Shown in pieces: positions 4,250 to 63,778 of a DNA stretch of 64,000 nt. The notes under the pieces are model-generated. The model did not search any database and was not told the DNA's origin. It worked only from the letters and a program-made list of their open reading frames with translations. The DNA is taken from the NCBI GenBank assembly GCA_026417895.1, contig JAOACJ010000016.1, positions 20,015 to 84,014 on the forward strand. Direction: 5' to 3'. Made by a program: the position numbers and the translations under genes. The stretch is from Patescibacteria group bacterium. Lineage in GTDB: Bacteria > Patescibacteriota > Patescibacteriia > UBA2591 > CALHIP01. Each line of letters starts with the position of its first letter. Positions within the stretch are counted from its first letter, which is position 1.

Positions 4250-4254
4250 AAATT

Positions 4255-4932: not shown

Positions 4933-5068
4933 AGATCTTTAATACAAAAATTAAATCTCAAAAGTCAAAATGTAATTTAAAATGTAAAATTATTTTTTTG
5001 ATTAATTTTGAACTTTTGGTTGTCATTTTATATTTTAAGGTTGGATTTGAAATTTTCAAAATATAAAT

Positions 5069-21700: not shown

Positions 21701-22256
21701 GAGCAATGAGTTTTTCTTTCGCCTCTCTTATCCTTTCTTTCATCTTCGAAATAGGGCAACGTGCCTCATATTCAAAAGGAATTTTTGGCGGCTTTACAAA
21801 TAAGAGAATATTCAGTTTTATTGTCGGATCAATCGGATCACAAAGGCTTTGGAGACCAAAACCTTTAGTCGCCACTTCATCTAAAAGATCACCGACAACA
21901 GAATCAGCCATTTTGTTCCAGTATTCTTTGTCGGTAAAAAACATTGGTTTGCCAGCTTTACCGCCAGTGGCCAGCCAAGTAGCTGATTCGGTGACAAATT
22001 TTTGGGCAAAACCTTCAAGAAAGCTTTTATAAAGAATGGCTATTACCTGATATTTTACCTTGTCATAAATCCTAATAGCTTGACTTTTTATCCATTCTAA
22101 AACCCGGGGAATATCACCGACGGTTGTGGAAGCTCCTTGAGCATATGCTGGTTTCGGCCAAAATAAAAGAGGAGTAAGTAGGGAGAAAATCATTACTCCG
22201 AGTAAAAAACTGATGATAATTTTTCGAAGATGTTTTTTCATTTTCCCTTTTTTCAA
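12741..22256 (-). CDS. giant secreted cysteine-rich surface protein with three CBM_4_9-like carbohydrate-binding modules
   Basis: 3171-aa uninterrupted ORF. N-terminal signal peptide (…LLTPLLFWPKPAYAQG), very many Cys in CxxC / CC / C-x-n-C arrangements, no TM after the signal. Three modules carry the CBM_4_9 signature (N..FE…W…G..Y.LSFWVK…YLDD): around LLPGTKYTLSFWVKNKDQ…IYLDDLQLEV, QKGRSYLLSFWVKRASNN…FYLDNITLKEV and NGDFEIGSG…VYFDDIEFKP. Confidence 0.8.
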   Translation of the reverse strand: MKKGKMKKHLRKIIISFLLGVMIFSLLTPLLFWPKPAYAQGASTTVGDIPRVLEWIKSQAIRIYDKVKYQVIAILYKSFLEGFAQKFVTESATWLATGGKAGKPMFFTDKEYWNKMADSVVGDLLDEVATKGFGLQSLCDPIDPTIKLNILLFVKPPKIPFEYEARCPISKMKERIREAKEKLIAQYKEGLKGYVNVEYVPGQPPQVQVKIKNAIRIDTKLYDVNKSNLINIADQLSGHQQLFLTEWDKYLQESKKIGPPNISGVLNSLSTIKERLKAITQGPPTFQTSLNWWLGRKWTSDGYRPIEAPVRCLNKSQEEFCQNPNCYNGACPGINNATQCQNNYSYCFEAIKRAQNYASQLSEWATTLEKMVDEAREAVEKGTPSPDLNILEDIQKTFTPEGSDLGVAMSLKSGILSKAAEKVGADKFFQSLQGQFQSVTSKISGKALLPAGLTEERARQMIAEGKASLKVYTGVLVADVANTFIQTFFSKFLERLFQKEGLNPEASPSGRTSWEGGIPASPTQEKIEAIYADLKTVSFKKPSGEINLLEEFAACPTETKYALPYNCVIDGGFARAIEENLTIKEAIEKNYLHGNWYVGSYGLTDGARDFSSRYSLTNLKKLRRARVIPLGLEIAAEKISRGDFGDAKFTLAQIVEGFDKVSSDGDCTIYVQGDPKSNTTEKKCEGSIGSWDSSANCCKKDGQCLVSASPFCHLVDPNWVLKLPSMQCNLMAYSAIPLPASNERQETCIEMKDCVGENEDGTCHTYGYCTREKNIWRLAGTQCPAYYNTCQLYTRTKDNQRFAWLKNTLDFGDCDANSVGCQWYCQRWNKDFAEGAGGWICTEPNQSLNIQPNGSVGSPRSVSDPFNTIFFNKFVETCPATSEGCSEFIRTKENLGTNLLPNSSFEDYSETSTTTTPTILVKGWQITSGQFLVDEAEAKSGKVSAKFTGSGKVELASTDNVDISLLPGTKYTLSFWVKNKDQSNDREIQVKINNSVTKIIPISKNTPWQRVSTDFIAPNNKKIIDLEIAVNGTGIYLDDLQLEVGSLSSYKSYASTNKIYLKKAPDWMKCYNRDNNGNLITNDDDHACADYALACQQDEVGCEKYTPVLGGPYLPAVARDTDRCPRECVGYEVFKQKPTHFYSEEDAYFIPRTVRICPASEVGCEEFTNLDVVNRGGEGREYYSYLRPCQKPRAECQYFYTWIGSETTGYQLKRYYLLAKTTTNGFEPDEMLSSNNAQALWGRCQNSQDARTNPHCKEFYDANGHVSYKLYKNTITCSETCVPLRKTTTVISGYCPTSTQGGLALNGVEFNNGICTYMAIPAEGERCSSVNVGCREYQGNAANNLRILFEDDFESLTVEPWIDGELSSESIYFGGRSMRVANNNNSVSRPVQDLVQKGRSYLLSFWVKRASNNSTTLTIRFRGNDNNIDFPSLPALTTGEWYSFTVGPVYFQREVANDERLVILSSSPFYLDNITLKEVRQNIFAIKNSWQTPTVCDQDLTGASAPGYHLGCAEYRDRANQSHFFRSFSKLCPEIKIGCEALIETKNSTSPFSETFNLTDPDEPKDNVLVPADQLTYLVVDQTKACPAGDKGCQKFGLPNLSQGEPISWTDFYLKNNPDLYTRRPILCRYHQQNCEEFEQAAAGKVYFKDPGEKICVWREKVPIGSEYRTGWFKKGTDQPCYTNYLPDGVTYGIKFSEESGYQGLVGECEERFAGCTEYIEPLRTAGVTNYVQNGDFEIGSGSSGQGPAPNWSYGYSGNSSTVSWDGASKSLKIANDTPHTVGADTRKIYAASQIVEIPHKNQKSFVLNFKVKVVSTSHLSYPSGHVNLKYEGWRGVTQLNGCQTEECQDWQEYKNHCGSSQSCCSWVGGNWSNNQCNISGQPKCKFNRGNLKECIAFLIKNGGNPWGDNLNHWPWNYEHGYEIGASIDASTTITSWQKRSLRVVAGGPLNPKNLAIEEIKIIPLLAPAYWHGGCSKTNAGDCTTIQNCPNCPWRCCEAFGEVYFDDIEFKPLDPYYYLDNNQLDKASCRGQVSLKEGCVLFKAQNDPSAIYNSIATYAKSEANQHRLVSPIDCTKKPWPVDGQGNPVNSDDNCTNSNFANTDYCRYCYALGQNTNDTNLILKVRRDRVCGEWLYCAGKRYVWQENQQRFLEICDYFLRCQKQTGEGSGAQCTLVSTETPEVLTEQKYKNRDFGWTGMDYSGYSLYNFYPVEMLRPKNYPNGYALSYLSGTTDYGVGNRTCTRNEDCPKGQVCYQSKCVVSPTCKLYPENTSPFSREVEGTYRGLNLCTERGGNNCLCSYRKAESVLGEPTYYFNLETDVESIKVCTQAENPQDLGKCCSPPCPNGMAVAFREDCTRTDEGRKNNQGKCEPMKKITDYIGLAGYCLEPDLEKPKEIQACLTWFPGEVETGLDSYNQVRSAGYFPSSDRRWYGYERYTRPAEISGFAPTFFPLGFNLTSSFPGQRLGGNWGCFADRLIQPLYLGGDYGNKCSEYTNYGETDLGYCFLAEGGEGTILQAKYIPYLERKIKREEIQKIIVKAKFRWENTTCSDLNTVDCSSSNKCCGPFDLELGPNNFKRAAYLHATHQNSSGYVCKSNGTCPVGGACLADECPDKNKSCLFIQAEFDQENYLRNFHLEFNEDGSGWGGAIIYTINLHLKSGANLPIKAYLAPASEINVAEGASCWRKDSNNNSRGCCQDYLGFSSEELKRDGSVTRQWACDGTDKEMASCFRGDQRKGSPSQAIYLYSSSYFAKSGNNFYYLDRKIYEYMIDRIEIDWKIDKSNPGDCKFGADYQGTIILPYEDPATKEKKYEKEVTGKGNGEARLFVQTIFDQKEGELKGFKVEFNDDDAGHGAAALTGIRIILKEAANKLVKINDKPYLPTVVNTNLVKLKPGTDVPYGNLTDILDYSYECLPRGATGFQGTMPKKYIIDSKGEVCHLYSGGIYDSDAVIKKLFPKSYAWSYLDVNTLSYLPGNIANNWDSRSDTSLHPTDRSPQIQSVNFSTGVPAGGTVGKITIGNQESGNILISGKTYTATLRFYAWADGAYMPVREVVVDWGDGFRSGSSNMITKNRKPVCKKGTDGLPLSFGDDPDACLNQYWEFVHTYLCTNPNGCSYQPKVYVKDNWGWCAHSASTPTTPYAGDFSCLDPDGNPGTSTPANFGVPYDGQIILNP

Positions 22257-22262: not shown

Positions 22263-23021
22263 TTATTTTTGTGCTTCTTTTACGGCTTGTAAAAACAGGT
22301 TTTTTAAGGTGGCATCATCAATTTGATCGAGAGTAGTTTTGTCCGCTCCGACCGAAAGCATCAACTGCCGAATAGTCGCTGGATCCAAATTTTCAAAACC
22401 AGTTAAATTTTCAGCAAAGGGTTGGTTAGTGGGAGGTGTATTAGTTATTGATAAATTGATCAATTTTTGCTGTTCAGCGATAATTTTAGAAAAATCTAAT
22501 TTGCCTAATCCGCTTGATAATTGTTTTTTTAACTCCTCAGGATCAATGCCTGTCTCTTGGATAGTTTCATTATACAACTTTTTTAGAGTTTCGTCATCAA
22601 CCTTGTCTAGGGTTTCTTTAGGTAGACCAGCTTGAATTAATATCTCTTTAATTTCCTCAACTGTTAGTTCTTTCTTTTCTTCTATTTTGGACCCCTCGGC
22701 AACTTTTTTCAAGGGGGTTGATTTGGGATTTAGAGGGTCAGAACCAGCCTCAATTTCTTCTTTGTCGGGATAATTATCAGAATCTGAATCGGATAGGTAA
22801 ATTGAGGTTTTATATTTAAAAACCTCATCAACATCAGAAAGACCATCTTTATCCGTGTCCCTCTGGGCTAATAAAGACTGAATTTCTTCATTAGTTAATT
22901 TATTTTCGTATTTTGGCACTCGAAACGGTCCTTGAATTGACTCTTTAATTCTAAAAAAGCCAAAAAAAAGGGTAAAAATAGCTAAAAGAGCTAAGCCAAT
23001 TAAAGGACCATGATTTTTCAT
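22263..23021 (-). CDS. membrane-anchored protein with Ca-binding-like Asp-rich loops and an internal duplicated helical motif
   Basis: 252 aa. N-terminal TM LIGLALLAIFTLFFGFF. DTDKDGLSDVDE and DSDSDNYPDKEE resemble thrombospondin-type-3 / dockerin-like calcium loops. There are two copies of ..AG..K.TLD..DD.TLK.L... The start overlaps the ksgA stop by 2 nt. Confidence 0.5.
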   Translation of the reverse strand: MKNHGPLIGLALLAIFTLFFGFFRIKESIQGPFRVPKYENKLTNEEIQSLLAQRDTDKDGLSDVDEVFKYKTSIYLSDSDSDNYPDKEEIEAGSDPLNPKSTPLKKVAEGSKIEEKKELTVEEIKEILIQAGLPKETLDKVDDETLKKLYNETIQETGIDPEELKKQLSSGLGKLDFSKIIAEQQKLINLSITNTPPTNQPFAENLTGFENLDPATIRQLMLSVGADKTTLDQIDDATLKNLFLQAVKEAQK

Positions 23022-27166: not shown

Positions 27167-28357
27167 ATGAGATCTGAACTATTTCTTAAAATTAAAATCA
27201 ATTTTATCCTTCGACTGGTTAATCTTTTTAAAAAGATCGGCTTTTTCATCTTTTGGTTTTTAGAAAAAACCCTTCAGGGCTTTACAAATTTTCTTTTCTT
27301 TTTGGCAAAAATTATTTTGTCTCTTTTCTTTTCCTTATATTTAAAAACAAAGAAATTAATTAAAGAGGTCTCTTTGAATTTCCACTACCAGGATAAGCTA
27401 TTTTCGTTTGTCTCTCACTTTCAGTCAAAAATAATTTTAATTTTTTTGATTTTTGTTTTTGTTTTTATTATCTCTGAACAGAAAATAATACCCGAAAAAA
27501 TGTTGTCTGTTCAGGCTTCTGTTTCTTTCGCCAAAGAAACAGAAGAGAATGAGGCTACTTCGCCTGATTTTAAAATCGCAACAGTTGAAGATGAGGAATC
27601 GGTTTTAATACCAAATTTTACCTTTGAACGAGACTTTGTGCCAACGCGAACAGAAATAGAAAAATATATTGTCCAACCTGGCGACACAATTTCTTCTATT
27701 GCCGAAGATTTTGAGGTTAGTGTTAATACAATTTTATGGGAAAATAAATTAACCCCTCGTTCAATTATTAGGCCAGGCCAGATCTTGAAAATTTTACCTA
27801 TTTCTGGTGTCTCTCATCAAGTCAAAAGAGGAGAAACAATTGAAAAAATTGCTCGTTATTATAAAGCAAATCAAGAAGATATTATTAGCTTTAATGATTT
27901 AGAAGAAAAACCATTAGTTGCTGGCGAAATCATTATTATTCCTGAAGGTAAAATTCCACCACCAGTTATACCAAGAACAGTGACAAGGTCTGTTCGAGAC
28001 AAATTATGGCCCGGTCAATTAGGTCAAAGAACAAGAGAGGGAACTAATTGTCGAGATTTTTATCCTGGACAATGTACCTGGTATGTGGCACAAAAGTACT
28101 GTATTCCCTGGTCTGGTCATGCCAAAAGTTGGTTAGCTAATGCAAAAAAATTTGGCTTTTCTACTGGCCTTGAACCAGTCAAGGGTGCCATTGTTTCACT
28201 CCGTGAAACTTGGTATGGCCATGTCGGTATTGTTGAAGAAGTGGGCGAAGATTCAATTATTATTTCGGAAATGAATCATTTGGGTCCTTGGAAGGTTAAT
28301 AAAAGAGAAATAAAAAAAGATGATTGGCGAATCAATGGTTATATCTATTTAAAATAA
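27167..28357 (+). CDS. LysM-LysM-CHAP peptidoglycan hydrolase with N-terminal membrane anchor
   Basis: Two LysM repeats (VQPGDTISSIAEDFEVSVNTILWENKL; HQVKRGETIEKIARYYKANQEDIISFNDL). C-terminal CHAP domain with catalytic Cys context GQCTWYVAQ and His GHVGIVEEV. Confidence 0.8.
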   Translation: MRSELFLKIKINFILRLVNLFKKIGFFIFWFLEKTLQGFTNFLFFLAKIILSLFFSLYLKTKKLIKEVSLNFHYQDKLFSFVSHFQSKIILIFLIFVFVFIISEQKIIPEKMLSVQASVSFAKETEENEATSPDFKIATVEDEESVLIPNFTFERDFVPTRTEIEKYIVQPGDTISSIAEDFEVSVNTILWENKLTPRSIIRPGQILKILPISGVSHQVKRGETIEKIARYYKANQEDIISFNDLEEKPLVAGEIIIIPEGKIPPPVIPRTVTRSVRDKLWPGQLGQRTREGTNCRDFYPGQCTWYVAQKYCIPWSGHAKSWLANAKKFGFSTGLEPVKGAIVSLRETWYGHVGIVEEVGEDSIIISEMNHLGPWKVNKREIKKDDWRINGYIYLK

Positions 28358-54048: not shown

Positions 54049-55434
54049 TTGGTTTTAAATTTTATGAAAATAGTTCGTATTCTAATTCTTGTTTTCATTA
54101 TTTTCTCTTTTCTTTTTGGTTGGGAATTAGGAGCTCAAATACCCGGTCAACCTCAACCTAGAAAGCCAATCTTGCCACCCGTTAATCTTTCTTGGTGGGT
54201 GGTCTGGGAACAACCGAGTGATTTTACTGACTTAATTAATACTTTCCGCACTCTCTATCCCTATGTTAATATTGAAGTCAAAAAATTTCGTTACGAAGAA
54301 TATCGTGAGGCTTTAATTGAGGCTTGGGCCCGGGACGTCGGACCAGATATTTTTTCTCTCCCCAATACCTGGCTTAGAGAATATCAGGAGTGGATTGTTC
54401 CGATGCCAGCCAAAGTTGCTTTAAAAAAAGAAATTCAAAGTGGTCCTTCTTGTGCTCGAAAAACAAAAATCATTACCGAAGAAAAACCCTTACTTACTCT
54501 TAAAGATTTAAAAGAAAAATTTGTGGGTCAGGTAGAAAAAGATGTTTTAATTCAGGGTCGAATTGCTGGTCTACCTCTTTCTTTTGATACCCTAGTTCTT
54601 TATTACAATCGTGATCTTTTAGATGCAGCTGGTATTCCTGAACCCCCAAAAACCTGGGAAGAGTTTATGGAGGCAGTGATTAAGACAACGTTGATAGATA
54701 AACAAAAAAATATTTTTCAAGCGGGTGCAGCTTTAGGGACAGCCAATAATATCGAAAGAGCAGTTGACCTTCTTTCTCTTTTGATGATGCAAAGTGGCAT
54801 CAATATGACCAATCCTCAGGGTTTGGTTACCTTTAATCAAGCCTGGCCAGACGATCCATCTTATTTTCCAGCCGAAGAAGCTTTGAGATTTTACACTGAT
54901 TTTGCTGATAAAAATAAAGAAGTTTATACTTGGCATAAAGAGATGCCCTCGAATTTAGAAATGTTTATCCAAGGGAAATTGGTTTTCTTTTTTGGTTATG
55001 CCTATCACTTACCTTTAATTAAAGCACAGGCCCCGAACCTGAATTTTGGCTTAACCAAAATGCCCCAGAGAAGTGGAACGCTTAAAGAAATAAACTTTGC
55101 TCATTATCCAGTTCAAGTCGTCTCCCGAAAAAGCAAAAATATAGAAATGGCATGGTTTTTTCTGAATTGGGCAAGCCAGAACCCAACTCCTTATTTAAAT
55201 CGCGCCAAAAAGCCAACCGCCCTACGAAGTTTGATTGCCATCCAATTGCAGGATCCAGATTTAGAAGTTTTTGCTTCACAGGCTTTAACAGCTTCCTCTT
55301 GGTATCAAGGGAAAAACCCACTTTTGGTGGAAGAAGCTTTTAAGGAAATGATTGATGATATCAACGAAGGCAGAAAGTCTTATCTAGAGGCAATCAATTT
55401 CGCTGTCCAAAAAATTAATCAACAAATAAAATGA
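54049..55434 (+). CDS. extracellular solute-binding protein (ABC-type, family 1-like), orphan
   Basis: Signal/anchor N-terminus, about 460 aa, with blocks resembling sugar-binding SBPs (…TWEEFMEAV…). No permease or ATPase genes are adjacent. Confidence 0.5.
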   Translation: MVLNFMKIVRILILVFIIFSFLFGWELGAQIPGQPQPRKPILPPVNLSWWVVWEQPSDFTDLINTFRTLYPYVNIEVKKFRYEEYREALIEAWARDVGPDIFSLPNTWLREYQEWIVPMPAKVALKKEIQSGPSCARKTKIITEEKPLLTLKDLKEKFVGQVEKDVLIQGRIAGLPLSFDTLVLYYNRDLLDAAGIPEPPKTWEEFMEAVIKTTLIDKQKNIFQAGAALGTANNIERAVDLLSLLMMQSGINMTNPQGLVTFNQAWPDDPSYFPAEEALRFYTDFADKNKEVYTWHKEMPSNLEMFIQGKLVFFFGYAYHLPLIKAQAPNLNFGLTKMPQRSGTLKEINFAHYPVQVVSRKSKNIEMAWFFLNWASQNPTPYLNRAKKPTALRSLIAIQLQDPDLEVFASQALTASSWYQGKNPLLVEEAFKEMIDDINEGRKSYLEAINFAVQKINQQIK

Positions 55435-56297
55435 AATTTTTTAATTTTCACATTCACCAAAATAGCCAAAGTTTCATTTTCAAAATCTTTTTTCTCTTTT
55501 CTCTTCTTTCTCTTTTCCTGTCTATTTTTTCGCCGGTTTTGGCAGAAAACACCACCTCCTCAACTTCAATGGTCACTGTTTATACGTGTGATACAAGCGG
55601 TTGTCGTCCTGGAGGATTGATGAAGGCCGTCTCTCTAAAATGTGCTTGTTGTGGCGATTGTGATTTAAACGATATTCTTAAAATCGTTGTGGGAATCTCT
55701 CGTCTGATTCTTCGTTGGGTTGGTGTTTTGGCTCTTATCTTTTTTATTATTGGTGGTATAATCTGGTTGACCTCCAGTGGTAATCCAGAACAGGTAAAAA
55801 GAGGGAAACAAATCTTGGTTGGTACTCTTATCGGTCTTTGTATTGTTTTTTTTGCCTGGCAAATTGTTAATATCATTATTTGCGGACTCTCTCAAGGTAA
55901 ACTTGAAGAATCTTGCACCCTCTTTAATCGGAAATGGTATGTCTTTCCGGGCGAAAAAGAAAAAAAATGTCAGATGGAAGAAAGACCAAATGCAGCTTGT
56001 TTTACCAACTGGCCTGAATGTCCATCTTTTGCGGCGATGGGTCCCAATCCCATTTGGAATTCAGATTGTAAGAAAGAGGAGGTAAAGACCATCCAGCAAA
56101 AATTAGCTCAACTTTGTTGTTACGGTACAGGTGTAGCAACTATTGATGGTTGTTTTGGCCCGGAAACAAGAAATGCAGTCAAATTATTCTGTCAAAAGAA
56201 TAGTGGTTGTGGGACTGGTAATGATCAAGGTTATGTTGATCAAACGACCTATAATTTAATTACCACCGGCACTGACCTTCAACTATGTCAAGAATAA
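55431..56297 (+). CDS. VirB2/TrbC-like pilin-family protein fused to a Cys-rich region and a C-terminal peptidoglycan-binding (PG_binding_1-like) domain
   Basis: Signal peptide …SPVLAENTT. Pilin core ILKIVVGISRLILRWVGVLALIFFIIGGIIWLTSSGNPEQVKRGKQILVGTLIGLCIVFFAWQIV. C-terminal VKTIQQKLAQLCCYGTGVATIDGCFGPETRNAVKLFCQ matches the PG_binding_1 pattern. Confidence 0.6.
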   Translation: MKFFNFHIHQNSQSFIFKIFFLFSLLSLFLSIFSPVLAENTTSSTSMVTVYTCDTSGCRPGGLMKAVSLKCACCGDCDLNDILKIVVGISRLILRWVGVLALIFFIIGGIIWLTSSGNPEQVKRGKQILVGTLIGLCIVFFAWQIVNIIICGLSQGKLEESCTLFNRKWYVFPGEKEKKCQMEERPNAACFTNWPECPSFAAMGPNPIWNSDCKKEEVKTIQQKLAQLCCYGTGVATIDGCFGPETRNAVKLFCQKNSGCGTGNDQGYVDQTTYNLITTGTDLQLCQE

Positions 56298-56301: not shown

Positions 56302-56658
56302 ATGTCATTCTTTTATAAAAATTTTCTTCTTCTTGCTACTTTCTACTTTCTATTTTCTAGTTTTATTTTGCCGGTTTTAGCTGAAGAAACAACCGAACTC
56401 CCTAATCCCCTTGGCACCGGCATGACCACGGAAAAAATTGTTGCCAATGTCATTAAACTGATTTTAGGTTTAGTTGGTGTGTTGGCTTTGATTATGTTTA
56501 TTTACGGTGGTATTACTTGGATGACTTCGGGTGGCAATGTTGAAGCGGTTAAAAGAGGAAAAAATACTTTAGTTTGGGCGGTTTTAGGTTTAGCTGTTGT
56601 TTTCTTTGCCTACAGTTTGGTCAATTTTATTTTAACCAAAGTGCTTGGCGTAAGGTAA
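56302..56658 (+). CDS. VirB2/TrbC-like pilin-family protein (paralog 2)
   Basis: Signal peptide …LPVLAEETT; core VIKLILGLVGVLALIMFIYGGITWMTSGGNVEAVKRGKNTLVWAVLGLAVVFFAYSLV; 118 aa. Confidence 0.6.
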   Translation: MSFFYKNFLLLATFYFLFSSFILPVLAEETTELPNPLGTGMTTEKIVANVIKLILGLVGVLALIMFIYGGITWMTSGGNVEAVKRGKNTLVWAVLGLAVVFFAYSLVNFILTKVLGVR

Positions 56659-56806: not shown

Positions 56807-57172
56807 ATGAGAAAAATTCTTTTCACTTTATCAACCTTAACTTTACTGGCTTTACCGGGCGTCACCTTTGCTCAAGTCAATGAATGGTTGAATAACATGG
56901 CTTTACAGAACATTCTGCCGACCAATGTTGATCTACCAGGTCTTGTTTTCAGCATTATTCGCTACATTCTTGGTTTCTTAGGGGTGGTGGCCGTTGTTGT
57001 CATTATTATTGGTGGTTTTATGTGGATGACAGCGGCTGGTAATGAAGAAAAGGTGGCTAAAGCCAAAAAGGTTTTAGTTCAAGGTTTGATTGGTTTAGTC
57101 ATTGTTATGTTAGCCTTTGCCATCGCCACCTTTGTCATGAGTATGATTCGAACCAGCACAGCTGGGGCCTAA
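56807..57172 (+). CDS. VirB2/TrbC-like pilin-family protein (paralog 3)
   Basis: Signal peptide …VTFAQVNE; core IIRYILGFLGVVAVVVIIIGGFMWMTAAGNEEKVAKAKKVLVQGLIGLVIVMLAFAIA; 121 aa. Confidence 0.6.
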   Translation: MRKILFTLSTLTLLALPGVTFAQVNEWLNNMALQNILPTNVDLPGLVFSIIRYILGFLGVVAVVVIIIGGFMWMTAAGNEEKVAKAKKVLVQGLIGLVIVMLAFAIATFVMSMIRTSTAGA

Positions 57173-57216: not shown

Positions 57217-57612
57217 ATGAAAAAAGGAAATTTCTTTTGCCCTTCCTTTATTTTTCTTTTTCTCTTATTTCTTTTCCTTTCATTTCAATTTTCTCTTGCC
57301 CAAGTTGACCCTCAAGTTTTGGAGGGTGAAAATTATTTAGATGAATTAGGCCAAGGAACAGATGTTTTAGAAAAAAGAGATTTAATTCTCCTTATTTTCT
57401 CGATTGTGCGCTATCTACTTGGTCTGATTGGTGTCGCGGCTGTCATAGTTATTATTTCGGCTGGTTATTCTTGGATGACAGCGGCTGGTAACGAGGAAAA
57501 AGTGAAAAAAGCCAAAGCTGTTTTACAAAATGGTATCATTGGTTTGGTCGTTATTATGATTGCCTATGCCTTGACGATTTTTGTTTTTAAACTCATTCGC
57601 GGCGAATTATAA
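57217..57612 (+). CDS. VirB2/TrbC-like pilin-family protein (paralog 4)
   Basis: Signal peptide …FSLAQVDPQ; core IVRYLLGLIGVAAVIVIISAGYSWMTAAGNEEKVKKAKAVLQNGIIGLVVIMIAYALT; 131 aa. Confidence 0.6.
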   Translation: MKKGNFFCPSFIFLFLLFLFLSFQFSLAQVDPQVLEGENYLDELGQGTDVLEKRDLILLIFSIVRYLLGLIGVAAVIVIISAGYSWMTAAGNEEKVKKAKAVLQNGIIGLVVIMIAYALTIFVFKLIRGEL

Positions 57613-57616
57613 TTTT

Positions 57617-58063
57617 ATGAAAATAAAGAAACAAAAAAAAGAGAGAATGTTTAAAAAAATTTTTTGCTGGTTAATTTTTTTATTTTTACTTTTTTCAGCT
57701 ATCAAACCAGCTTTAAGTCAAGTCAGACCCGAAACTTTAAATCTTTTAGAGAATGTAGCTGGTCAGGCTGGTTATAAAGCGCCCCAAGATCCAGTCAGAA
57801 TAGTTATTCGAGTCATTAATTTTCTTCTTAATTTAGTCGGTGTCTTTTTTATTTTAATGATTATTTACGGCGGTTTAATGTGGATGACCGGTGGAGCAAC
57901 TGATTTTTTGTGGTTGGGCGGTGCAGGGCAAGAAGAAAAGATAAAAAAGGCCAGAACACTTATTCGAGATGCCATTATTGGCCTAGCCATTATTATTTTA
58001 TCTAAGGTTATTTATTATTTTATTGTAGAAAGATTTAAAGAGGCGGGAGAAGAAGTGGAATGA
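57617..58063 (+). CDS. VirB2/TrbC-like pilin-family protein (paralog 5, divergent loop)
   Basis: Start moved to the Met at 57617 (MKIKKQKKERMF…) to avoid a 32-nt overlap. Signal peptide …KPALSQVRPE; core VINFLLNLVGVFFILMIIYGGLMWMTGGATDFLWLGGAGQEEKIKKARTLIRDAIIGLAIIIL. Confidence 0.55.
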   Translation: MKIKKQKKERMFKKIFCWLIFLFLLFSAIKPALSQVRPETLNLLENVAGQAGYKAPQDPVRIVIRVINFLLNLVGVFFILMIIYGGLMWMTGGATDFLWLGGAGQEEKIKKARTLIRDAIIGLAIIILSKVIYYFIVERFKEAGEEVE

Positions 58064-58410
58064 GAATTGATAAAGTTTTATTTGACTAAATAATATTAAC
58101 AAAGACAGAGACGAGAGGGATATAAAATCCGGGTTGTTGTGAGATTGTTGGCTGAGTCGGTTGTGGTTCTGTTTGGTGTTGAGATTCTTCGATTTTTTAC
58201 CTTTCATTTCTACCTCCTGGACATTTTAGAAAAACGTCCATTAAGTTTCTGGCTACCGGAGGGATTTGTACCTTCCAAAAAACTGCCCTATTAGGTAGCT
58301 AATTTTTATTTTTCTATTAAAATTCTAGCAAATTTTCAAAATTTTGTCAAAAGCAAATTTCCACTTATTTAAGCGGAAATTTTATGTTTAATGATATAGA
58401 AACTTTAAAA

Positions 58411-59136
58411 TTAAAAATTTTTAAGTCTTTGTTTTAGTTCAATCATTCCCTGGATATCTTCCCAAGCCGTGGCTAAGACTTTGACGGTGCTTTTTCTCTG
58501 AACTGTTCTTCTTTCCATCCATTCAACAGGAATTTCTTTGATTTTAAAACCTGATTTTTCAGCCAAAATTAACAATTCGCTATCAAAAAACCAGTTATTA
58601 TTTTTTATTTTTGGCAGAATTTCTTGACTAACTTTTTGAGAGATAGCCTTAAAACCGCACTGAGCGTCTTGAAAGCTTGGCTGGAAGAAAATTTTCAATA
58701 GTAAATTATAAATCCGACTCATTAATTCTCTTTGAAAAGATCTTTGAGTTTGACTTTCTTTTTTTAATCGTGAGCCGATGGCTAAGTCGTAATTTTCCTC
58801 AGCAATGGCCTTGATTAATAAAGGAAAGTATTTTAAATCAGTGGCTAAATCAATGTCCATATAAGTATAAATGTCCGCTGAATATTCTGACCAAGCCTTT
58901 TTTAAAGCATAGCCTCTCCCCTTTTCAAGAATATGAAAAAATGAAATTTCTTTATATTTTTTTGATAATTTTTCAGCAATTTCTGACGTCGCATCACTTG
59001 AACCATTATCAGCAATTAAAATTTGCCAATTAAAATTTTTGAGATTTTTTTGACAGAAATCAAAAACTTTCAAAGTATTTTCTTTAACAACCCTTTCTTC
59101 GTTGTAAGTTGGCAAGACAAGAAGAATTTTTTTCAT
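58411..59136 (-). CDS. GT2-family polyprenol-phosphate glycosyltransferase (DPM1/GtrB-like)
   Basis: KILLVLPTYNEERVV…IADNGSSDATSEIA and the DxD region MDIDLATD; 241 aa. Confidence 0.8.
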   Translation of the reverse strand: MKKILLVLPTYNEERVVKENTLKVFDFCQKNLKNFNWQILIADNGSSDATSEIAEKLSKKYKEISFFHILEKGRGYALKKAWSEYSADIYTYMDIDLATDLKYFPLLIKAIAEENYDLAIGSRLKKESQTQRSFQRELMSRIYNLLLKIFFQPSFQDAQCGFKAISQKVSQEILPKIKNNNWFFDSELLILAEKSGFKIKEIPVEWMERRTVQRKSTVKVLATAWEDIQGMIELKQRLKNF

Positions 59137-60334
59137 AAAGAAAATAAATTAAAAAATAGAAAAAAACAGCTAAATGAATTAAGGAAATGAGAATGGAAAA
59201 TTCACCAGCCAAATTTCTAATTTTATTTTGCCAATCTAAATTTAAAAAAGTCAAGGGTAAAGAATAGATGAGATTTAGGAAAGCGGTTAAAGAAACGATC
59301 AAAAAAATTCTTTTTAATTCTTTTCGAAAAGGTAAAATTAGACAAAAAATAGTAAAGAAGGGAAAAATATATCTTTCATGCATAGCGGTAGGGAGAAAAT
59401 AAAAAATGAAGGCGATAAAAAGATTGCCAAAAAGAAAACAATTAAATTCACCTTTATTTTTTCTTAACCATAGAAGAACCAAAAAATAACTTAAACCAAA
59501 AAGAATGAAACCAATACAACCATAGCTAAAAGGACCAACAAAGACCGTATCATCTTTAATAAAATTTCTACCTAAACCAATCATTACCTGAGGAATCCAC
59601 CAAAGATTAAAAGCATTCATTGAAAGGGCCGGGCTCATTCTGGCCGAGGCTAACCAAGTTTTTTCAAAAAGCGAAATTAAAGAAAGGCCGTTGATCAAAA
59701 GAGGAGAAACAAGGACAAAAAACAAACTCACTGCTACTAGTAGAGAAAAAGATAAAATTTTTAGACCATAATTTTGCCAAATAAAAAAAAGAAAAAGAGG
59801 AAAAAAGATGACAGCTTGAAGTTTGGTTAAAAAAGAAATGGTCAAAAAAATAAGAGAGAGAAGTGGTTGTTTTTTATCTAAAAAAATTAAAGCAATGATC
59901 AAAAATAAAACAAAAAGAGAGTCCCACTGCCCCCAAATTGATGAATTATAAAGAATAAAAGGATGTAAAAAATAAATGAAACCAAACCAGAAAGCTTTTT
60001 CTTGGCCAACTTTTCTTTTTAAAAAATAAAAAATCAAATAAGCAGTCCAAAAATCAGCCAAAACCGCTGGGATTTTAAGGGTCCAAGCGGTCAAAGACGA
60101 ACGAAAGATTAAGTAAAAGAAAAGAGTAAAAAAACCCAACCAATAAACCCAAAGCGGTGGTAAATTTGGTGATTGGGGGTTTTGATAGAGAGAAAATGGT
60201 CCGTATTTTAAGACATTTTCACTCCATTTTTGATGCACTCTTAAATCCCAACTAATACCTGGTAAAAAAATTAAAACAAAGCGGAACAAAATAACTAAGA
60301 CAATCAGAAGCCAAAAAATTTTTTTATTTTCCAT
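59084..60334 (-). CDS. polytopic GT-C-type membrane glycosyltransferase-like protein
   Basis: 416 aa, about 11 hydrophobic helices. Paired with the GT2 genes as in GtrB/GtrC or ArnC/ArnT systems. Confidence 0.5.
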   Translation of the reverse strand: MENKKIFWLLIVLVILFRFVLIFLPGISWDLRVHQKWSENVLKYGPFSLYQNPQSPNLPPLWVYWLGFFTLFFYLIFRSSLTAWTLKIPAVLADFWTAYLIFYFLKRKVGQEKAFWFGFIYFLHPFILYNSSIWGQWDSLFVLFLIIALIFLDKKQPLLSLIFLTISFLTKLQAVIFFPLFLFFIWQNYGLKILSFSLLVAVSLFFVLVSPLLINGLSLISLFEKTWLASARMSPALSMNAFNLWWIPQVMIGLGRNFIKDDTVFVGPFSYGCIGFILFGLSYFLVLLWLRKNKGEFNCFLFGNLFIAFIFYFLPTAMHERYIFPFFTIFCLILPFRKELKRIFLIVSLTAFLNLIYSLPLTFLNLDWQNKIRNLAGEFSILISLIHLAVFFYFLIYFLYEKNSSCLANLQRRKGC

Positions 60335-60999
60335 AAAAAGAGTTTTAAGAGATGAAGGATAAATTTGCCAATTACTAACCAGCTTAATTTACTTGCACCC
60401 TTTTTTCGATCGATGAAAAGATAGGGTATTTCTCTAAAATTTTTGTATTTTCCTTTGACAAAAATTTCTAAACCAATTTTATAACCAAGCGGTGAAAATT
60501 CCATACCTTCAACAACTTCTTTTCTAAAAAAGAAAAAACCAGAAAGAGGATCAGAAATTTTAGGTACTAAAATTTTAGCCAAGAAAGTGGCTAGGCCAGA
60601 AAAAACCTTTCTTTTTAAAGGCCAATTTTTAATTCTACTCCCCTTGACTCTTCGACTGGCTATCACTAAGTCAACCTCCTTTAATGCTTCTATCATTGGT
60701 AGAATTAATTCTGGTGGATGCGAAAGGTCGGCATCCATGACACCCCAAATTTTACCCTGGGCGTTTTTAAAACCCTCAAGAACAGCCAAAGAAAGATCTC
60801 TTTGTCCCTTTCTTCTAATTAATTTTATTTCTAAAGGATAATTCTTTTTTACCACCTCTACTTTGTCAGCTGTGCCATCAGGCGAATTGTCATCGACAAT
60901 AATTACTTCTAGATTTTTGATTTTTAATTCAGAAAGAGTAGAAAATAATTTCTCAATATTTTCTCTCTCATTATAAGTAGGGATGATTAAAGAAATCAT
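60304..60999 (-). CDS. GT2-family polyprenol-phosphate glycosyltransferase (DPM1-like)
   Basis: MISLIIPTYNERENI…EVIIVDDNSPDGTADKV…GVMDADLSHPPE. Start placed at the internal Met (the ORF track gives 61086). Confidence 0.8.
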   Translation of the reverse strand: MISLIIPTYNERENIEKLFSTLSELKIKNLEVIIVDDNSPDGTADKVEVVKKNYPLEIKLIRRKGQRDLSLAVLEGFKNAQGKIWGVMDADLSHPPELILPMIEALKEVDLVIASRRVKGSRIKNWPLKRKVFSGLATFLAKILVPKISDPLSGFFFFRKEVVEGMEFSPLGYKIGLEIFVKGKYKNFREIPYLFIDRKKGASKLSWLVIGKFILHLLKLFLWKIKKFFGF

Positions 61000-62254
61000 A
61001 TTGATGATTGTTTTTGTTTTTAGTTGAATTTTGATAGAAAAGATAGAAGAATAAGTAAAGAAAGCAAAAAATATTAATAAAGACAAAAACCCAAGAGGAA
61101 AAATTAGAGAGATTAAAGAGATAAAAGGATTGCCGGAAAGGCGCGATAGCAGCTAAGTTAGCAAAAAAGGACAGAGAAAGCAAAAGATAAATTAAAAACA
61201 AATTTTTATCTTTATTTAAAGTCAAAATCATTAAAGGAAAAAGAGGATAGAGATATCGTTCGTGCATTCTGGTTAATAACATAAAGAAAGAGAAGGTTAA
61301 AAAAGCGCTTGTTAAATAAATTATTTTTGGCGAAGAGTTTTTTAATAGATTTTTGACAGCCCAAAAATAAGTAGTAAAGAAAAAAATAAAGCCAACTAAA
61401 AAATAAGGAAACAAACCTAAAAATTTTGCTAGATCAGAAGTAAGATATGGATAATAAAGCCACCAGAAATTAAAAGCATAGACTGAAAGATAAGAATATT
61501 GACCAGCAAGAAGAAAAGGAATTTTAATCACAGAGAAAATTTTGCCTGATAAGATAAAAGGTAAACAAATAATCAAGGCGGTGAGGATAGCTAGGCCGAT
61601 ATTTTTAAAAAGATGAAGAAAACCTTTCTTTTGCCAGTTAAGACAAAAAATTAAAGGAAAGAAGATAATACTCTGCATTTTAAAAAGAAAAGCAATGGTT
61701 AAAAAAATCCAAGAAAAAGAAAATTTATTTTTGGTGACAAAAAATAAGGCAAGTAAGATAAAAAAAGTATGGATTGAATCAACCTGGCCCCAATAAGCGG
61801 AGTCATAAATTAAGCCTGGATTGAAAAGGTAAAGAGCGAGAATGAAAAAGGCCAGCCAAAATTTTAGTTGAAATTGTTTTCGGAGTAGAAAAAAAATAAA
61901 AAGGCCAGTTAATAAATCAAAAACAATGGCTGGTAATTTGAGAAGAAAATAAAGCGGATAGGTATTTAATTCAAAATTCGGTGAAAAAAACTTTTGATAG
62001 ATTTTTCCGATAAGAGCCAAAACATAAAGATAGGGCGGAAAATAATTAGGCAACATTACTTCTGGATTGACTCGTTGTTCATAAGCATTAAGTACACCAA
62101 ATTTCGTGATTGATTTCGCCCATTCCTGCCAAAAATTTAAATCTGGCCGATAACCAGCATAGGGAATAAGCCAAAAACGAATCAAAAAGGCAAGAATGAA
62201 AAGAGAACAAAGAAATAAAAAACATATTTTTTTATTGGTAAAAAAAATCTTCAT
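60971..62254 (-). CDS. polytopic GT-C-type membrane glycosyltransferase-like protein
   Basis: 427 aa, many hydrophobic helices, DUF2029/GT-C-like organisation. Confidence 0.5.
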   Translation of the reverse strand: MKIFFTNKKICFLFLCSLFILAFLIRFWLIPYAGYRPDLNFWQEWAKSITKFGVLNAYEQRVNPEVMLPNYFPPYLYVLALIGKIYQKFFSPNFELNTYPLYFLLKLPAIVFDLLTGLFIFFLLRKQFQLKFWLAFFILALYLFNPGLIYDSAYWGQVDSIHTFFILLALFFVTKNKFSFSWIFLTIAFLFKMQSIIFFPLIFCLNWQKKGFLHLFKNIGLAILTALIICLPFILSGKIFSVIKIPFLLAGQYSYLSVYAFNFWWLYYPYLTSDLAKFLGLFPYFLVGFIFFFTTYFWAVKNLLKNSSPKIIYLTSAFLTFSFFMLLTRMHERYLYPLFPLMILTLNKDKNLFLIYLLLSLSFFANLAAIAPFRQSFYLFNLSNFSSWVFVFINIFCFLYLFFYLFYQNSTKNKNNHQYDFFNHPYL

Positions 62255-62257
62255 CTT

Positions 62258-63778
62258 TTAATCATTAGTAATAATTCTAAAAACTGAACCATCTAAATTA
62301 TAAAACATTTTTTTCTCTTTGATATGTGGAATTTCCTCGGCTCGGGCGACATATAAGTAATTTTTATGAGGGTCATAACATTGATTAATATCACAGAATT
62401 CATATTTATCAAAAGAAACTACTTCTTGCCAATTATCTGGCCGATAGACTCTTTTCACTTCAATTGATTGAAATTTTTTAGGATCGTATTTAAGATAAAA
62501 TAGAAAATAGATATAAGGTTGATTAGCTTTATTAGTAAAAACTATTTTTGTATATTTATCTTGATTTTCTTTAATATAATTAATAACCTCTTTAAAACCA
62601 AATTGGTAAAGCGTTCTTTCATAATTATATGGATAGCCAATTTTAAAAAGAAAATCAGCGTTTAGTATTAATGATAGAAACAAAATAGATGATAAAGAAA
62701 ATATTATTTTTCGAGGATTAATTTGCAACCTTTCTTTCAATAAAAAATAAATTTTATAACACCCATATGCGGCAATAATTTCTAAAAATGGTAACATTGG
62801 AACAGATCTTAAACTGCCGGGGTTAGGAAATGTTAAGGCCGCAGGTAATAGAGAAATAATCAAAATCCAAAATAATAATCGATGCTTTGCCAACCCCCTT
62901 TTTTGCCATAAGAAATAAATACCCATCAATGCAGCTATTAAAATTGGTAGCAAATAATGAGTAAAAAGGAATTTTGGACTTAAATAAACCAAATAATTTA
63001 TAAAAAATAAAATTGGCCAAAAAGAAAAATTAAAAACTGAAACCTGATAAAAACGACCTTGGATTTTTTGCCAGTTAGTTAATTGGGTATACAAAAAGGG
63101 TGAAGCAATAGCCAAAAAAACAAAAATGGATAAAATAATATATTTTTTCCATTGCCAAACCCTTTTCCTATAAATTATTAAAGACCCTATTAATAAAAGA
63201 GGATTATAGACTTTTGTTATTGCATACGTATAGAAATTTAAAGCCAGAGGAACAGCGCTTAAAACAATGAACTTCGGTTTTTTTAAACCCTTTAAAAAAA
63301 ATAGGATAGTTAAAGAAATAAAAAATGGAACAGTAATTGCTTCAAAACTTGCTCGACTTAAAAAAATATGCCAAGGAGAAATAGTCAAAAAGAAAGTAGC
63401 TAACAAGGCAATAGATCTTTTTTTAAATAGTTCTTTAGTTAAAAAATAAGTTAATAAAACAGTTAAAAATCCGAAAATTACTGACGGAAGTCTGGTCGAA
63501 AATTCATTTAAACCAAGGAAGGCAATGAATGGAATAGTAATATAAGGGTAAAAAATATGATTTCTTACATCAACCCGATCACTAAAAGCTTCAAAATATA
63601 ATGGTAAAAAATTTCCTCGATGGTCGCGTCCTGTTTTTAAAAGTGAATAGGCTTCATAACCGTTAAGCACCTCGTCTTGGTTAAAAGTTATAGGAAAGAT
63701 ATTGAGACAAATAATTCGTAAAAGAAGGGCAGCTATAAAAATTAAAAGAAGAAAAAGTTTCTCAAAATTTCTTTTCAT
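62258..63778 (-). CDS. GT-C membrane glycosyltransferase, PMT/ArnT-like (GT39/GT83-like)
   Basis: N-terminal loop DEVLNGYEAYSLLKTGRDHRGNFLPLYFEAF carries the Asp-Glu motif characteristic of the PMT/ArnT family, followed by many TM helices; 506 aa. Confidence 0.6.
   Translation of the reverse strand: MKRNFEKLFLLLIFIAALLLRIICLNIFPITFNQDEVLNGYEAYSLLKTGRDHRGNFLPLYFEAFSDRVDVRNHIFYPYITIPFIAFLGLNEFSTRLPSVIFGFLTVLLTYFLTKELFKKRSIALLATFFLTISPWHIFLSRASFEAITVPFFISLTILFFLKGLKKPKFIVLSAVPLALNFYTYAITKVYNPLLLIGSLIIYRKRVWQWKKYIILSIFVFLAIASPFLYTQLTNWQKIQGRFYQVSVFNFSFWPILFFINYLVYLSPKFLFTHYLLPILIAALMGIYFLWQKRGLAKHRLLFWILIISLLPAALTFPNPGSLRSVPMLPFLEIIAAYGCYKIYFLLKERLQINPRKIIFSLSSILFLSLILNADFLFKIGYPYNYERTLYQFGFKEVINYIKENQDKYTKIVFTNKANQPYIYFLFYLKYDPKKFQSIEVKRVYRPDNWQEVVSFDKYEFCDINQCYDPHKNYLYVARAEEIPHIKEKKMFYNLDGSVFRIITND

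What the first reader, a model, noticed from the sequence alone, without database searches (positions are those of the whole stretch)
55431..56297. Pilin-family paralog 1 fused to a Cys-rich segment and a peptidoglycan-binding domain
The 288-aa first gene of the array has the pilin hairpin and then a Cys-rich stretch (…CTLFNRKWY…CQMEERPNAACFTNWPECPSF…). It ends with VKTIQQKLAQLCCYGTGVATIDGCFGPETRNAVKLFCQKNSG, a clear PG_binding_1-type motif (V..lQ..L….DG.FG..T..AV..FQ). A pilin anchored to the cell wall would be a candidate basal or anchoring subunit for a pilus crossing a Gram-positive-like wall.
Basis: partly seen in the sequence, partly recalled or inferred. Interest (0 to 1): 0.6.

Follow-up and report, generated by a model that had tools for sequence, protein, structure and literature searches.

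The report
Conjugation-type pilin fused to wall-binding domain
The first gene of a five-gene pilin array in an ultra-small (Patescibacteria) bacterium really does encode a secretion-system pilin joined to a cysteine-rich peptidoglycan-binding domain, and this fusion recurs in many related uncultured bacteria, which gives a testable clue to how their essential but unexplained secretion pilus is tied to a cell wall.

Summary

The fusion is not an assembly artefact. At least 21 clusters at 50% identity share the architecture. In all eight distinct loci that could be read downstream, it is the first gene of a 3-5 gene array of short, cysteine-free pilins.

The tail is not universal. Close orthologs at the same syntenic position carry no tail or other cysteine-rich tails.

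A Patescibacteria-type T4SS core (PrgI/VirB3, TrsD, VirB4) and a sixth long-tailed pilin lie about 50 kb away in the same window.

Pilin arrays in Patescibacteria are already published (2023-2025). I found no description of the peptidoglycan-binding pilin.

Best reading: a specialised minor VirB2-type pilin that tethers the pilin polymer or T4SS conduit to the cell's own wall (about 0.45). The main rival is a host-wall adhesin (about 0.3).

Verdict: a new variant of a known kind, of moderate interest.

The parts
55431..56297 (+). p1: 288-aa modular VirB2-like pilin with C-terminal PG_binding_1 (whole gene including stop)
   Evidence: ORF. Pfam PF18895 plus PF01471. Identical NCBI protein. The ATG overlaps the stop of the upstream SBP gene (ATGA), read directly.
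55431..55544 (+). Sec-type signal peptide (aa 1-38, ...SPVLA/ENTT)
   Evidence: Hydrophobic stretch aa 12-39. Paralog p2 has the same ...LPVLA/EETT site. The cleavage site is inferred.
55545..55664 (+). N-terminal extracytoplasmic Cys-rich segment (aa 39-78, 6 Cys, ends in the C-x-L-x-D motif)
   Evidence: Cys positions. C71, C77 and L79 are invariant or nearly invariant in the 21 fusions. The motif is found in 21/21 fusions.
55665..55895 (+). VirB2-like helical hairpin (aa 79-155): TM1, basic loop SSGNPEQVKRGKQ, TM2
55896..56066 (+). Flexible linker followed by a conserved Cys-rich neck (aa 156-212; C..(T)WP.CP...W)
   Evidence: pLDDT below 50 for aa 163-177. C197 is invariant and W209 nearly invariant. 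The median spacing from hairpin to PGB is 45 aa in the 21 fusions.
56067..56294 (+). PG_binding_1 domain bracketed by conserved Cys (aa 213-288)
56302..56658 (+). p2: short pilin (118 aa, 0 Cys, 'ELPNPLG' type)
   Evidence: PF18895 45.6 bits and TrbC 37.4 bits. Positional ortholog in all six compared loci.
56807..57172 (+). p3: short pilin (121 aa)
   Evidence: PF18895 38.5 bits. NCBIfam Mbov_0395 pilin-like family 46.9 bits, above its cut-off of 40. Positional ortholog.
57217..57612 (+). p4: short pilin (131 aa)
   Evidence: PF18895 34.2 bits. Its best match in each of the close loci is p4.
57581..58063 (+). p5: divergent pilin with an insertion in the loop (start more likely the ATG at 57647)
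   Evidence: PF18895 18.4 bits, below the cut-off. The local pilin HMM matches in two pieces. Orthologs are L001_p5 and L004_p6.
54049..55434 (+). Solute-binding-protein gene, translationally coupled to p1
   Evidence: SBP_bac_8 and SBP_bac_1. The same neighbour is seen in L001, L002, L004, L006 and L019.
5069..5500 (-). PrgI/VirB3-like T4SS component
   Evidence: PF12666 35.8 bits.
4255..4932 (-). TrsD-like protein (resembles the VirB4 N-terminal region)
   Evidence: TraC_F_IV, weak, 22.8 bits. A TrsD gene next to virB4 is the standard Patescibacteria layout according to PMC12102498.
2336..4249 (-). VirB4-like T4SS ATPase
   Evidence: P-loop_TraG 91.9 bits and AAA_10.
3..941 (-). Sixth pilin gene beside the T4SS core, with a tail of at least 170 aa that is not Cys-rich and is cut by the window edge
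   Evidence: Local HMM 3e-16. Translation. PF18895 43.1 bits.

Best explanation
Shown, with about 0.95 confidence. The gene encodes a specialised paralog of the VirB2/TrbC-type pilins of the Patescibacteria type IV secretion system. After Sec export and signal-peptide cleavage, the two hydrophobic helices sit in the membrane as a hairpin with the short basic loop on the cytoplasmic side. Both ends are therefore outside the cell. The C-terminal end carries, on a tether of about 45-55 residues, a disulfide-stapled PG_binding_1 domain.

Inferred, about 0.45. The hairpin is 41% identical to that of p2 and is the most conserved part of the protein. It lets p1 co-assemble with the short, cysteine-free pilins p2-p5, which form the bulk of a pilus or wall-spanning conduit energised by VirB4. 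The peptidoglycan-binding head grips the producer's own wall just outside the membrane. In this way p1 acts as a minor, low-copy 'stator' or basal subunit. It fixes the polymer or T4SS channel in a monoderm envelope that has no outer-membrane core complex. Functionally this resembles the peptidoglycan-binding extensions of other trans-envelope machines.

The module is accessory. Related lineages have lost it or replaced it with other cysteine-rich modules.

For: Topology rests on the signal peptide plus two hydrophobic helices. The eleven tail Cys and six N-terminal Cys are consistent with an oxidising, extracytoplasmic location.

The family is conserved. There are 21 pilin-PGB fusions among the best 153 representatives. 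Of these, 21/21 match PF18895 and 18/21 match PF01471. Cys and Trp positions are invariant or nearly invariant.

p1 has a specialised role. It is always the first gene of the array. Positional orthology of p1, p2 and p3 holds in all six compared loci. The PGB tail is found only on the Cys-rich C-x-L-x-D paralog type, in 21/21 cases.

The tether is short and fairly constant: median 45 aa, and 20 of 21 fall between 27 and 64 aa. In 17 of 21 proteins the PGB is the terminal module. This fits reaching a wall that lies just outside the membrane.

T4SS core genes are present in the same window. The literature reports VirB2-like pilin arrays in Patescibacteria that are essential in Southlakia epibionticum.

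Against: The tail is absent or replaced in close syntenic orthologs. No separate PGB gene is present in the approximately 20-kb stretches read around those arrays. An anchor is therefore not indispensable.

The PGB region diverges faster (45% and 33% identity) than the hairpin (79% and 65%). Some fusions carry further Cys-rich modules distal to the PGB. Other pilins of this family carry Ig-like or unknown Cys-rich ectodomains. This modular, variable pattern is typical of adhesins.

No pilus has been seen in these organisms. Peptidoglycan binding is untested, and the PG_binding_1 fold also occurs in proteins that do not bind peptidoglycan (matrix metalloproteinase pro-domains). The pilin array lies about 50 kb from the T4SS core.
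Confidence: 0.45

Rival explanations
1. Host-wall adhesin. p1 is a minor pilin displayed at the tip or along the shaft of the T4SS pilus. Its PG_binding_1 head binds the cell wall of the host or prey cell on which the epibiont lives. Variation in the tail reflects host range. In this reading p1 would take the place of the VirB5 tip subunit or of Gram-positive surface adhesins, neither of which is found in these systems.
For: Tails vary between close orthologs: none, PGB, PGB plus extra modules, or other Cys-rich modules. Other pilins of the family carry an Ig-like Big_5 ectodomain or long unknown ectodomains. The ectodomains evolve faster than the hairpin. The heavy disulfide content suits an exposed protein. 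PMC12102498 found no PrgB-type adhesins in Patescibacteria. PMC10936435 proposes host attachment for other PGBD proteins of Paceibacteria. From general knowledge, the first subunits incorporated into a base-growing VirB2 pilus end up at the tip, and p1 is the first gene.
Against: No PG_binding_1 domain is known to act as a trans-acting adhesin. Host peptidoglycan is not exposed in diderm hosts and is absent in most archaea. The tether is short. The PGBD proteins of PMC10936435 are separate secreted proteins of about 690 aa, not pilins.
Confidence: 0.3
2. Membrane-resident wall tether without a pilus. The hairpin never leaves the membrane. p1, and perhaps the whole array, forms or lines the membrane part of the T4SS or another membrane complex. 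The PGB simply couples that complex, or the membrane, to the wall.
For: No pilus has been demonstrated in Patescibacteria, and reviews call it a 'possibility'. Gram-positive T4SSs generally lack pili. The array lies about 50 kb from virB4 and sits next to envelope genes: an SBP upstream and a GT2/PMT_2 glycosylation cluster downstream. The tether is short.
Against: The hairpin shows strong family-specific conservation. Five to six paralogs are kept in conserved order. The fold is similar to that of solved conjugative pilins. These features are more than a membrane anchor needs. The pilin array is essential together with the T4SS in S. epibionticum.
Confidence: 0.15
3. The PG_binding_1 fold is used here for protein-protein contacts or another ligand rather than for peptidoglycan. 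Candidates are an S-layer, a glycopolymer, or another pilin's ectodomain.
For: The closest orthologs have degenerate core motifs (NGCYD and DDCYD instead of DGxFG) and carried no precomputed Pfam PF01471 annotation; they match it only at E<=1 (alignment). Extra Cys replace canonical positions, for example FQ becomes FC. From general knowledge, the fold is a non-peptidoglycan-binding pro-domain in matrix metalloproteinases.
Against: More distant fusions have fully canonical PG_binding_1 sequences, with a best E of 1.2e-16; P0101 scores 50 bits over the whole model. All of the top structural neighbours are domains of peptidoglycan-active enzymes.
Confidence: 0.1

Closest known systems
VirB2-like pilin arrays of the Patescibacteria T4SS (Wang et al. 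2023 Cell, PMC10633639; Quinonero-Coronel et al. 2025, PMC12102498; review PMC12857230)
   Same: The Pfam family is the same (PF18895/PF04956). The genes form a tandem array of sequence-divergent pilins (2-11 genes in the published survey). The chromosome context is near the origin of replication, with dnaN, rnpA and ksgA. A VirB4/TrsD/PrgI core is present and no relaxase is in view.
   Different: Those papers describe the pilins as small VirB2-like proteins and interpret the arrays as possible variation for host adaptation. I found no mention of a peptidoglycan-binding pilin, of a Cys-rich first-position paralog, or of conserved positional orthology within arrays.
VirB2/TrbC/TraA conjugative pilins of diderm T4SSs, and archaeal Ced/Ted pilins (PDB 8s6h, 8dfu, 8dft)
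   Different: The classical pilins are 70-120 aa with no globular ectodomain. In those systems the minor or tip function is supplied by a separate protein (VirB5), and wall contacts are made by VirB1 or the core complex.
PG_binding_1 domains of wall enzymes (Streptomyces Zn DD-peptidase 1lbu, SleB 6tci/4fet, CtpB 4c2c, phiKZ gp144 3bkh, L,D-transpeptidases)
   Different: Here the domain is attached to a pilin hairpin and not to an enzyme. It is also stapled by family-specific cysteines (C213, C230, C286, plus C197 in the neck).
Peptidoglycan-anchoring modules of other trans-envelope machines (T6SS 'evolved' TssL/TagL, MotB, GspA-B/ExeA-B, FimV). This comparison rests on general knowledge.
   Different: Most of these use a different fold (OmpA_C-like or LysM). 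In all of them the module sits on a membrane accessory subunit and never on the filament subunit itself.
Modular type IV pilins of Streptococcus sanguinis (PilB with a vWA module, PilC with a lectin module), and sortase-pilus basal pilins. This comparison rests on general knowledge.
   Same: The concept is shared: a pilin scaffold carries a grafted functional module and is used as a minor subunit. For basal pilins, the shared idea is a subunit that joins the fibre to peptidoglycan.
   Different: The pilin folds and assembly machineries are unrelated. This protein has no class III signal peptide and no LPXTG or sortase signal. Any attachment to the wall would be non-covalent.

Membership tests
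T4SS_pilin (PF18895) / VirB2-TrbC superfamily | Match to the family HMM above the curated threshold | tested here: met
   40.9 bits against a cut-off of 26.6, aa 80-149. All 21 fusion homologs match.
T4SS_pilin (PF18895) / VirB2-TrbC superfamily | Cleavable signal peptide followed by two hydrophobic helices joined by a short basic loop | tested here: met
   Hydropathy peaks at aa 12-39, 82-118 and 125-156, with the loop SSGNPEQVKRGKQ. Model helices 79-113 and 119-153.
T4SS_pilin (PF18895) / VirB2-TrbC superfamily | Fold similarity to solved conjugative pilins | tested here: inconclusive
T4SS_pilin (PF18895) / VirB2-TrbC superfamily | A T4SS (VirB4 with VirB3/VirB6) encoded in the same genome | tested here: met
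   VirB4-like, TrsD-like and PrgI genes lie at 2336..5500 (-), with another pilin at 3..941 (-). They are about 50 kb from the array. No VirB6 was recognised.
T4SS_pilin (PF18895) / VirB2-TrbC superfamily | Polymerises into an extracellular filament | not testable with these tools
   This needs microscopy or biochemistry. It has not yet been shown for any Patescibacterium.
PG_binding_1 (PF01471) | Match to the family HMM above the curated threshold | tested here: met
   27.7 bits against a cut-off of 23, model positions 2-39 of 57. Of the 21 fusions, 18 match, with a best E of 1.2e-16.
PG_binding_1 (PF01471) | Complete three-helix bundle fold | tested here: met
PG_binding_1 (PF01471) | Extracytoplasmic location | tested here: met
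   This is inferred from topology: the domain follows the second helix of a Sec-exported hairpin and is Cys-rich. It is not shown experimentally.
PG_binding_1 (PF01471) | Binds peptidoglycan | not testable with these tools
   This requires sacculus pull-down or muropeptide binding with the oxidised domain.
Sortase-anchored (basal) pilins of Gram-positive bacteria | C-terminal LPXTG-type sorting signal with a hydrophobic, positively charged tail | tested here: not met
   There is no [LIV]PX[TSA]G motif, and the protein ends ...DLQLCQE.
Type IV pilus pilins (class III signal peptide) | Prepilin-peptidase site G/(F,M)xxxE at the N-terminus | tested here: not met
   The motif is absent from the first 60 residues. 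No T4P Pfam family is matched.
VirB5-type minor (tip) pilin | Sequence or fold similarity to VirB5/TraC | tested here: not met

The most novel reading that the evidence does not exclude
p1 is the host-recognition subunit of a Gram-positive-type T4SS pilus. It would be displayed at the tip, where its interchangeable disulfide-rich head (PG_binding_1 here; other Cys-rich or Ig-like modules in relatives) binds the envelope of the host cell and so sets host range. This would make the first-position pilin a VirB2-derived functional replacement for VirB5 and for surface adhesins, and a sequence-readable predictor of which hosts uncultured Patescibacteria attach to.
Probability: 0.25. Interest if true: 0.75.

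Novelty: new variant of a known kind. Interest (0 to 1): 0.5.

Why it matters
The Patescibacteria T4SS and its pilin array are essential for the epibiotic life of the one species tested. Their role is described in the literature as completely unknown, and whether a monoderm T4SS makes a pilus at all is an open question.

A conserved first-position pilin paralog that carries a wall-binding domain gives that question a concrete handle. It predicts a physical link between the pilin polymer and peptidoglycan, either the cell's own or the host's. That link can be tested with a 110-residue recombinant domain, antibodies and cryo-ET.

The positional orthology of the array genes also argues that the paralogs are functionally specialised subunits. 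This is a different reading from the antigenic or host-variation idea offered in the 2025 survey.

More broadly, the data show that VirB2-type pilins can serve as scaffolds for grafted ectodomains, which I know of only for type IV pili (general knowledge, not searched here).

Tried and rejected
(1) Assembly or frameshift artefact. Rejected: the frame is uninterrupted, an identical NCBI protein exists, and the same architecture is seen on many independent contigs.

(2) 'VirB4 is a broken gene'. Rejected: the 225-aa ORF is the TrsD-like protein that normally accompanies virB4 in Patescibacteria.

(3) The many high-scoring PGB-repeat proteins in the exhaustive search (4-17 repeats). The four I read are Cys-poor proteins, two of which end in NlpC/P60-like regions. 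They rank high only because the repeats add up, and they are not relatives of the fusion.

(4) The highly expressed PGBD proteins of archaea-parasitising Paceibacteria (PMC10936435). I checked the supplement for one of the three: it is a gene of about 690 aa without a pilin domain.

(5) Taxonomic placement and a wider survey through GTDB species genomes. Alignments A3 and A4 were too divergent for the tool. A2 found nothing. The ClpB neighbour found only relatives at 32-42% identity (Gribaldobacteria, Nealsonbacteria, Saccharibacteria), so the class remains undetermined.

(6) The afdb50 fold library was unavailable.

(8) Promoter and terminator scans of 49000-58600 were at the chance level and say nothing about sub-operon structure.

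(9) I looked for a separate PGB gene that could compensate in tail-less loci. None is present in the roughly 20 kb around each array, nor elsewhere in the window.

(10) Pfam and NCBIfam give no annotation for the other Cys-rich tails, or for the unknown ORFs next to the T4SS core.

Full report
**1. The observation.** The window has one uninterrupted ORF at 55431..56297 (+) of 288 aa. Its ATG overlaps the stop codon of the upstream solute-binding-protein gene (ATGA). The protein is identical to NCBI MAG protein N2259_03145, 'Patescibacteria group bacterium'.

Pfam reports PF18895 T4SS_pilin at aa 80-149 (40.9 bits, cut-off 26.6). It also reports PF01471 PG_binding_1 at aa 215-255 (27.7 bits, cut-off 23). 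NCBIfam adds a sub-threshold match to the Mbov_0395 pilin-like conjugal transfer family.

Four more PF18895 genes follow directly: 56302..56658, 56807..57172, 57217..57612 and 57581..58063. The last is weak. The protein has 19 Cys: six in the N-terminal ectodomain, two in the second helix and eleven in the tail. The four downstream paralogs have 0-1.

**2. Anatomy.** Hydropathy shows a signal peptide (aa 12-39...SPVLA/ENTT; p2 has the same kind of site). It also shows two hydrophobic helices (aa ~82-118 and ~125-156) separated by the basic loop SSGNPEQVKRGKQ.

An AlphaFold2 model was built on an alignment of 21 fusion homologs (mean pLDDT 78). It has helices 79-113 and 119-153 at pLDDT about 90. 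It has a low-confidence linker at aa 156-180. It has a compact C-terminal domain at aa 181-288, pLDDT 85-95, with helices 216-227, 244-256 and 271-279.

A sequence profile of the 21 fusions matches PG_binding_1 domains of solved wall enzymes across the full domain, with E from 3e-11 to 9e-5 for the 18 strongest matches. By the topology of a Sec-exported hairpin, both termini, and hence all the Cys-rich parts and the PGB domain, are extracytoplasmic. This last point is an inference.

**3. Is the fusion conserved?** The word-indexed search found only eight close relatives. In the alignment, two of them (P0002, 245 aa; P0007, 244 aa) keep a tail homologous to the PGB region. Three end about 20 residues after the second helix. 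Two have short, different Cys-rich tails.

The contigs carrying P0002, P0003 and P0004 are syntenic with the window. The order is gyrA, yidC, x, clpB-like, NTP-transferase, SBP, long pilin, four or five short pilins, then a convergent GT2 cluster. These proteins are therefore orthologs at the same position, and the tail is gained, lost or swapped among them.

An exhaustive HMM search with the three-sequence profile gave 38,212 hits at E<=1e-3. I classified the 153 proteins in hand with local HMMs. These were the representatives listed plus the relatives not among them. The result was 21 pilin-PGB fusions, 55 single pilins, 24 proteins with 2-17 pilin hairpins in one ORF, and 53 unrelated PGB-repeat proteins.

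Pfam independently confirms PF18895 in 21/21 and PF01471 in 18/21 of the fusions, with a best E of 1.2e-16. Their alignment shows invariant or nearly invariant C71, C77, C197, W209, C213, L225, C230, T246, F253, G267, T273 and C286.

The more distant fusions are P0145 (28% identity), P0016, P0035, P0170 and P0171. Each is again the first gene of an array of two to four short pilins. P0140 sits on contigs too short to show what follows. The fusion is thus a recurrent, inherited architecture, but not a universal one.

**4. What kind of pilin is p1?** BLASTP between arrays shows positional orthology. The window's p1, p2 and p3 each find their best match at the same position in all six compared loci. 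p4 and p5 do so in the close loci. Within the window, p1 is 41% identical to p2 over the hairpin.

All 21 PGB-bearing proteins have the Cys-rich signature C-x-L-x-D just before the first helix. The PGB is therefore grafted only onto this paralog type. Among 76 single-hairpin representatives, 21 have PGB tails and about 17 have other Cys-rich tails of at least 60 aa with no Pfam domain above threshold. The rest have short tails, often with Cys-rich N-terminal extensions.

Three fusions carry further Cys-rich modules after the PGB. The spacing from hairpin to PGB has a median of 45 aa; 20 of 21 fall between 27 and 64 aa. The PGB is the terminal module in 17 of 21. Against its two PGB-bearing orthologs, the hairpin is 79% and 65% identical, the PGB 45% and 33%, and the N-terminal ectodomain about 30%.

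**5. Genomic setting.** The window is an origin-proximal piece of a small, AT-rich chromosome (GC 34.6%). It contains dnaN, rnpA, ksgA, gyrA, yidC, recA, ftsH and leuS, among others.

At its left end lies a Patescibacteria-type T4SS core: PrgI/VirB3-like (5069..5500), TrsD-like (4255..4932) and VirB4-like (2336..4249). Two small membrane proteins follow, and then a sixth PF18895 pilin at 3..941 (-). This pilin has a tail of at least 170 aa that is not Cys-rich and runs off the window.

This layout matches the published description of the Patescibacteria T4SS. That description also reports 441 tandem arrays of 2-11 VirB2-like pilins (PMC12102498). The array is essential in Southlakia epibionticum (PMC10633639, PMC12857230).

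I found no description of a peptidoglycan-binding pilin in the searchable literature. One of the PGBD proteins highlighted in archaea-parasitising Paceibacteria was checked and is a separate secreted protein of about 690 aa.

**6. How it most likely works.** The following is shown. The protein is a VirB2-type hairpin with a Cys-rich exterior, a flexible linker and a bona fide PG_binding_1 fold. The architecture and first-gene position are conserved. A T4SS is encoded in the same genome.

The following is inferred. p1 enters the same assembly as p2-p5 through its conserved hairpin, as a low-copy specialised subunit, and its head contacts peptidoglycan.

I favour contact with the producer's own wall (about 0.45), for three reasons. 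The tether is short and fairly constant. Characterised PG_binding_1 domains mostly act on the cell's own sacculus. Variably fused peptidoglycan-binding modules are a recurrent solution for immobilising trans-envelope machines (MotB, T6SS TssL/TagL, GspA/ExeA; general knowledge). Such a module would be especially useful for a monoderm T4SS with no outer-membrane core complex.

The main rival (about 0.3) is a host-wall adhesin at the tip or along the shaft of the filament. It is favoured by the swap-in, swap-out behaviour of the tail, by its faster divergence, by extra distal modules, and by other ectodomain-bearing pilins such as P0167 with an Ig-like Big_5 domain.

Lesser rivals are a membrane-resident wall tether without any pilus (about 0.15) and a PG_binding fold that binds something other than peptidoglycan (about 0.1).

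**7. Comparison and membership.** The protein is a member of PF18895/VirB2-like pilins: the HMM, the topology and a T4SS in the genome are all met, while polymerisation is untestable here. It is also a member of PF01471: the HMM and the fold are met, while binding is untestable here.

It is not a sortase pilin (no LPXTG). It is not a type IV pilus pilin (no prepilin motif). It is not a VirB5 homolog.

It would work like a basal pilin or stator, or alternatively like the modular minor pilins of Gram-positive type IV pili, without belonging to those families.

**8. Verdict.** This is a real, conserved and, as far as I could find, undescribed variant of a recently recognised system. It is not categorically new, but it is informative. 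It offers a direct experimental handle on whether and how the essential Patescibacteria T4SS pilins engage a cell wall. The conserved positional orthology of the array also argues for specialised subunits and not mere variation. Interest 0.5.

Noticed in passing
window 3..941 (-): A sixth PF18895 pilin gene (43.1 bits) lies immediately beside the T4SS core genes. It has a signal peptide, a hairpin and a 'LINPALV' motif. Its tail of at least 170 aa is not Cys-rich and is cut by the window edge. It resembles P0165, a 407-aa protein that NCBI names 'pilin' in a Patescibacteria MAG. The genome therefore has two different long-tailed pilins.
   Followed up: partly
window 2336..5500 (-), 951..2161 (-): A Patescibacteria-type T4SS core is present: PrgI/VirB3-like, TrsD-like (225 aa) and VirB4-like, followed by two small single-TM proteins without any family match. 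No VirB6, VirD4 or relaxase was recognised in the window.
   Followed up: partly
proteins P0053, P0136, P0020, P0041, P0080 and others: Twenty-four of the best 153 representatives are single ORFs with 2-17 tandem pilin hairpins. P0053, for example, is 1775 aa with 17 hairpins. These could be pilin arrays fused into polyproteins or gene-calling artefacts. They have not been described, to my knowledge.
   Followed up: no
window 58411..63778 (-); also L002, L004, L009, L019, L020: Each of these arrays is followed on the opposite strand by a conserved cluster of GT2 glycosyltransferases and large polytopic membrane proteins. PMT_2-like proteins were recognised in the window, L002 and L004, and one protein resembles a cell-surface glycopolymer formation family. 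This could reflect pilin or envelope glycosylation.
   Followed up: no
window 12741..22256 (-), 9362..12703 (-), 22263..23021 (-): A giant 3171-aa protein has CBM_4_9 carbohydrate-binding domains. Next to it are a 1113-aa protein with no family match and a small protein with a sub-threshold TSP3-repeat match (23.9 bits, cut-off 25). These are likely surface or adhesion proteins between the T4SS core and ksgA.
   Followed up: no
window 27167..28357 (+): A LysM plus CHAP peptidoglycan hydrolase. It is a possible VirB1-like wall-remodelling candidate, but it is not adjacent to either pilin locus.
   Followed up: no
proteins P0004, P0006, P0056, P0084, P0145, P0157: A short terminal motif C(P)G......(V)CC recurs at the ends of several Cys-rich pilin tails, sometimes after the PGB domain. 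It appears to be a small disulfide module that no Pfam model recognised.
   Followed up: no
L001 10704..11525 (-), L002 12260..13009 (-), L009 12238..12768 (-), L019 12284..12904 (-), L020 12860..13405 (-): In related loci an unannotated gene of 176-273 aa sits between the pilin array and the GT2 cluster. The window has only about 350 bp of non-coding DNA there (58064..58410).
   Followed up: no
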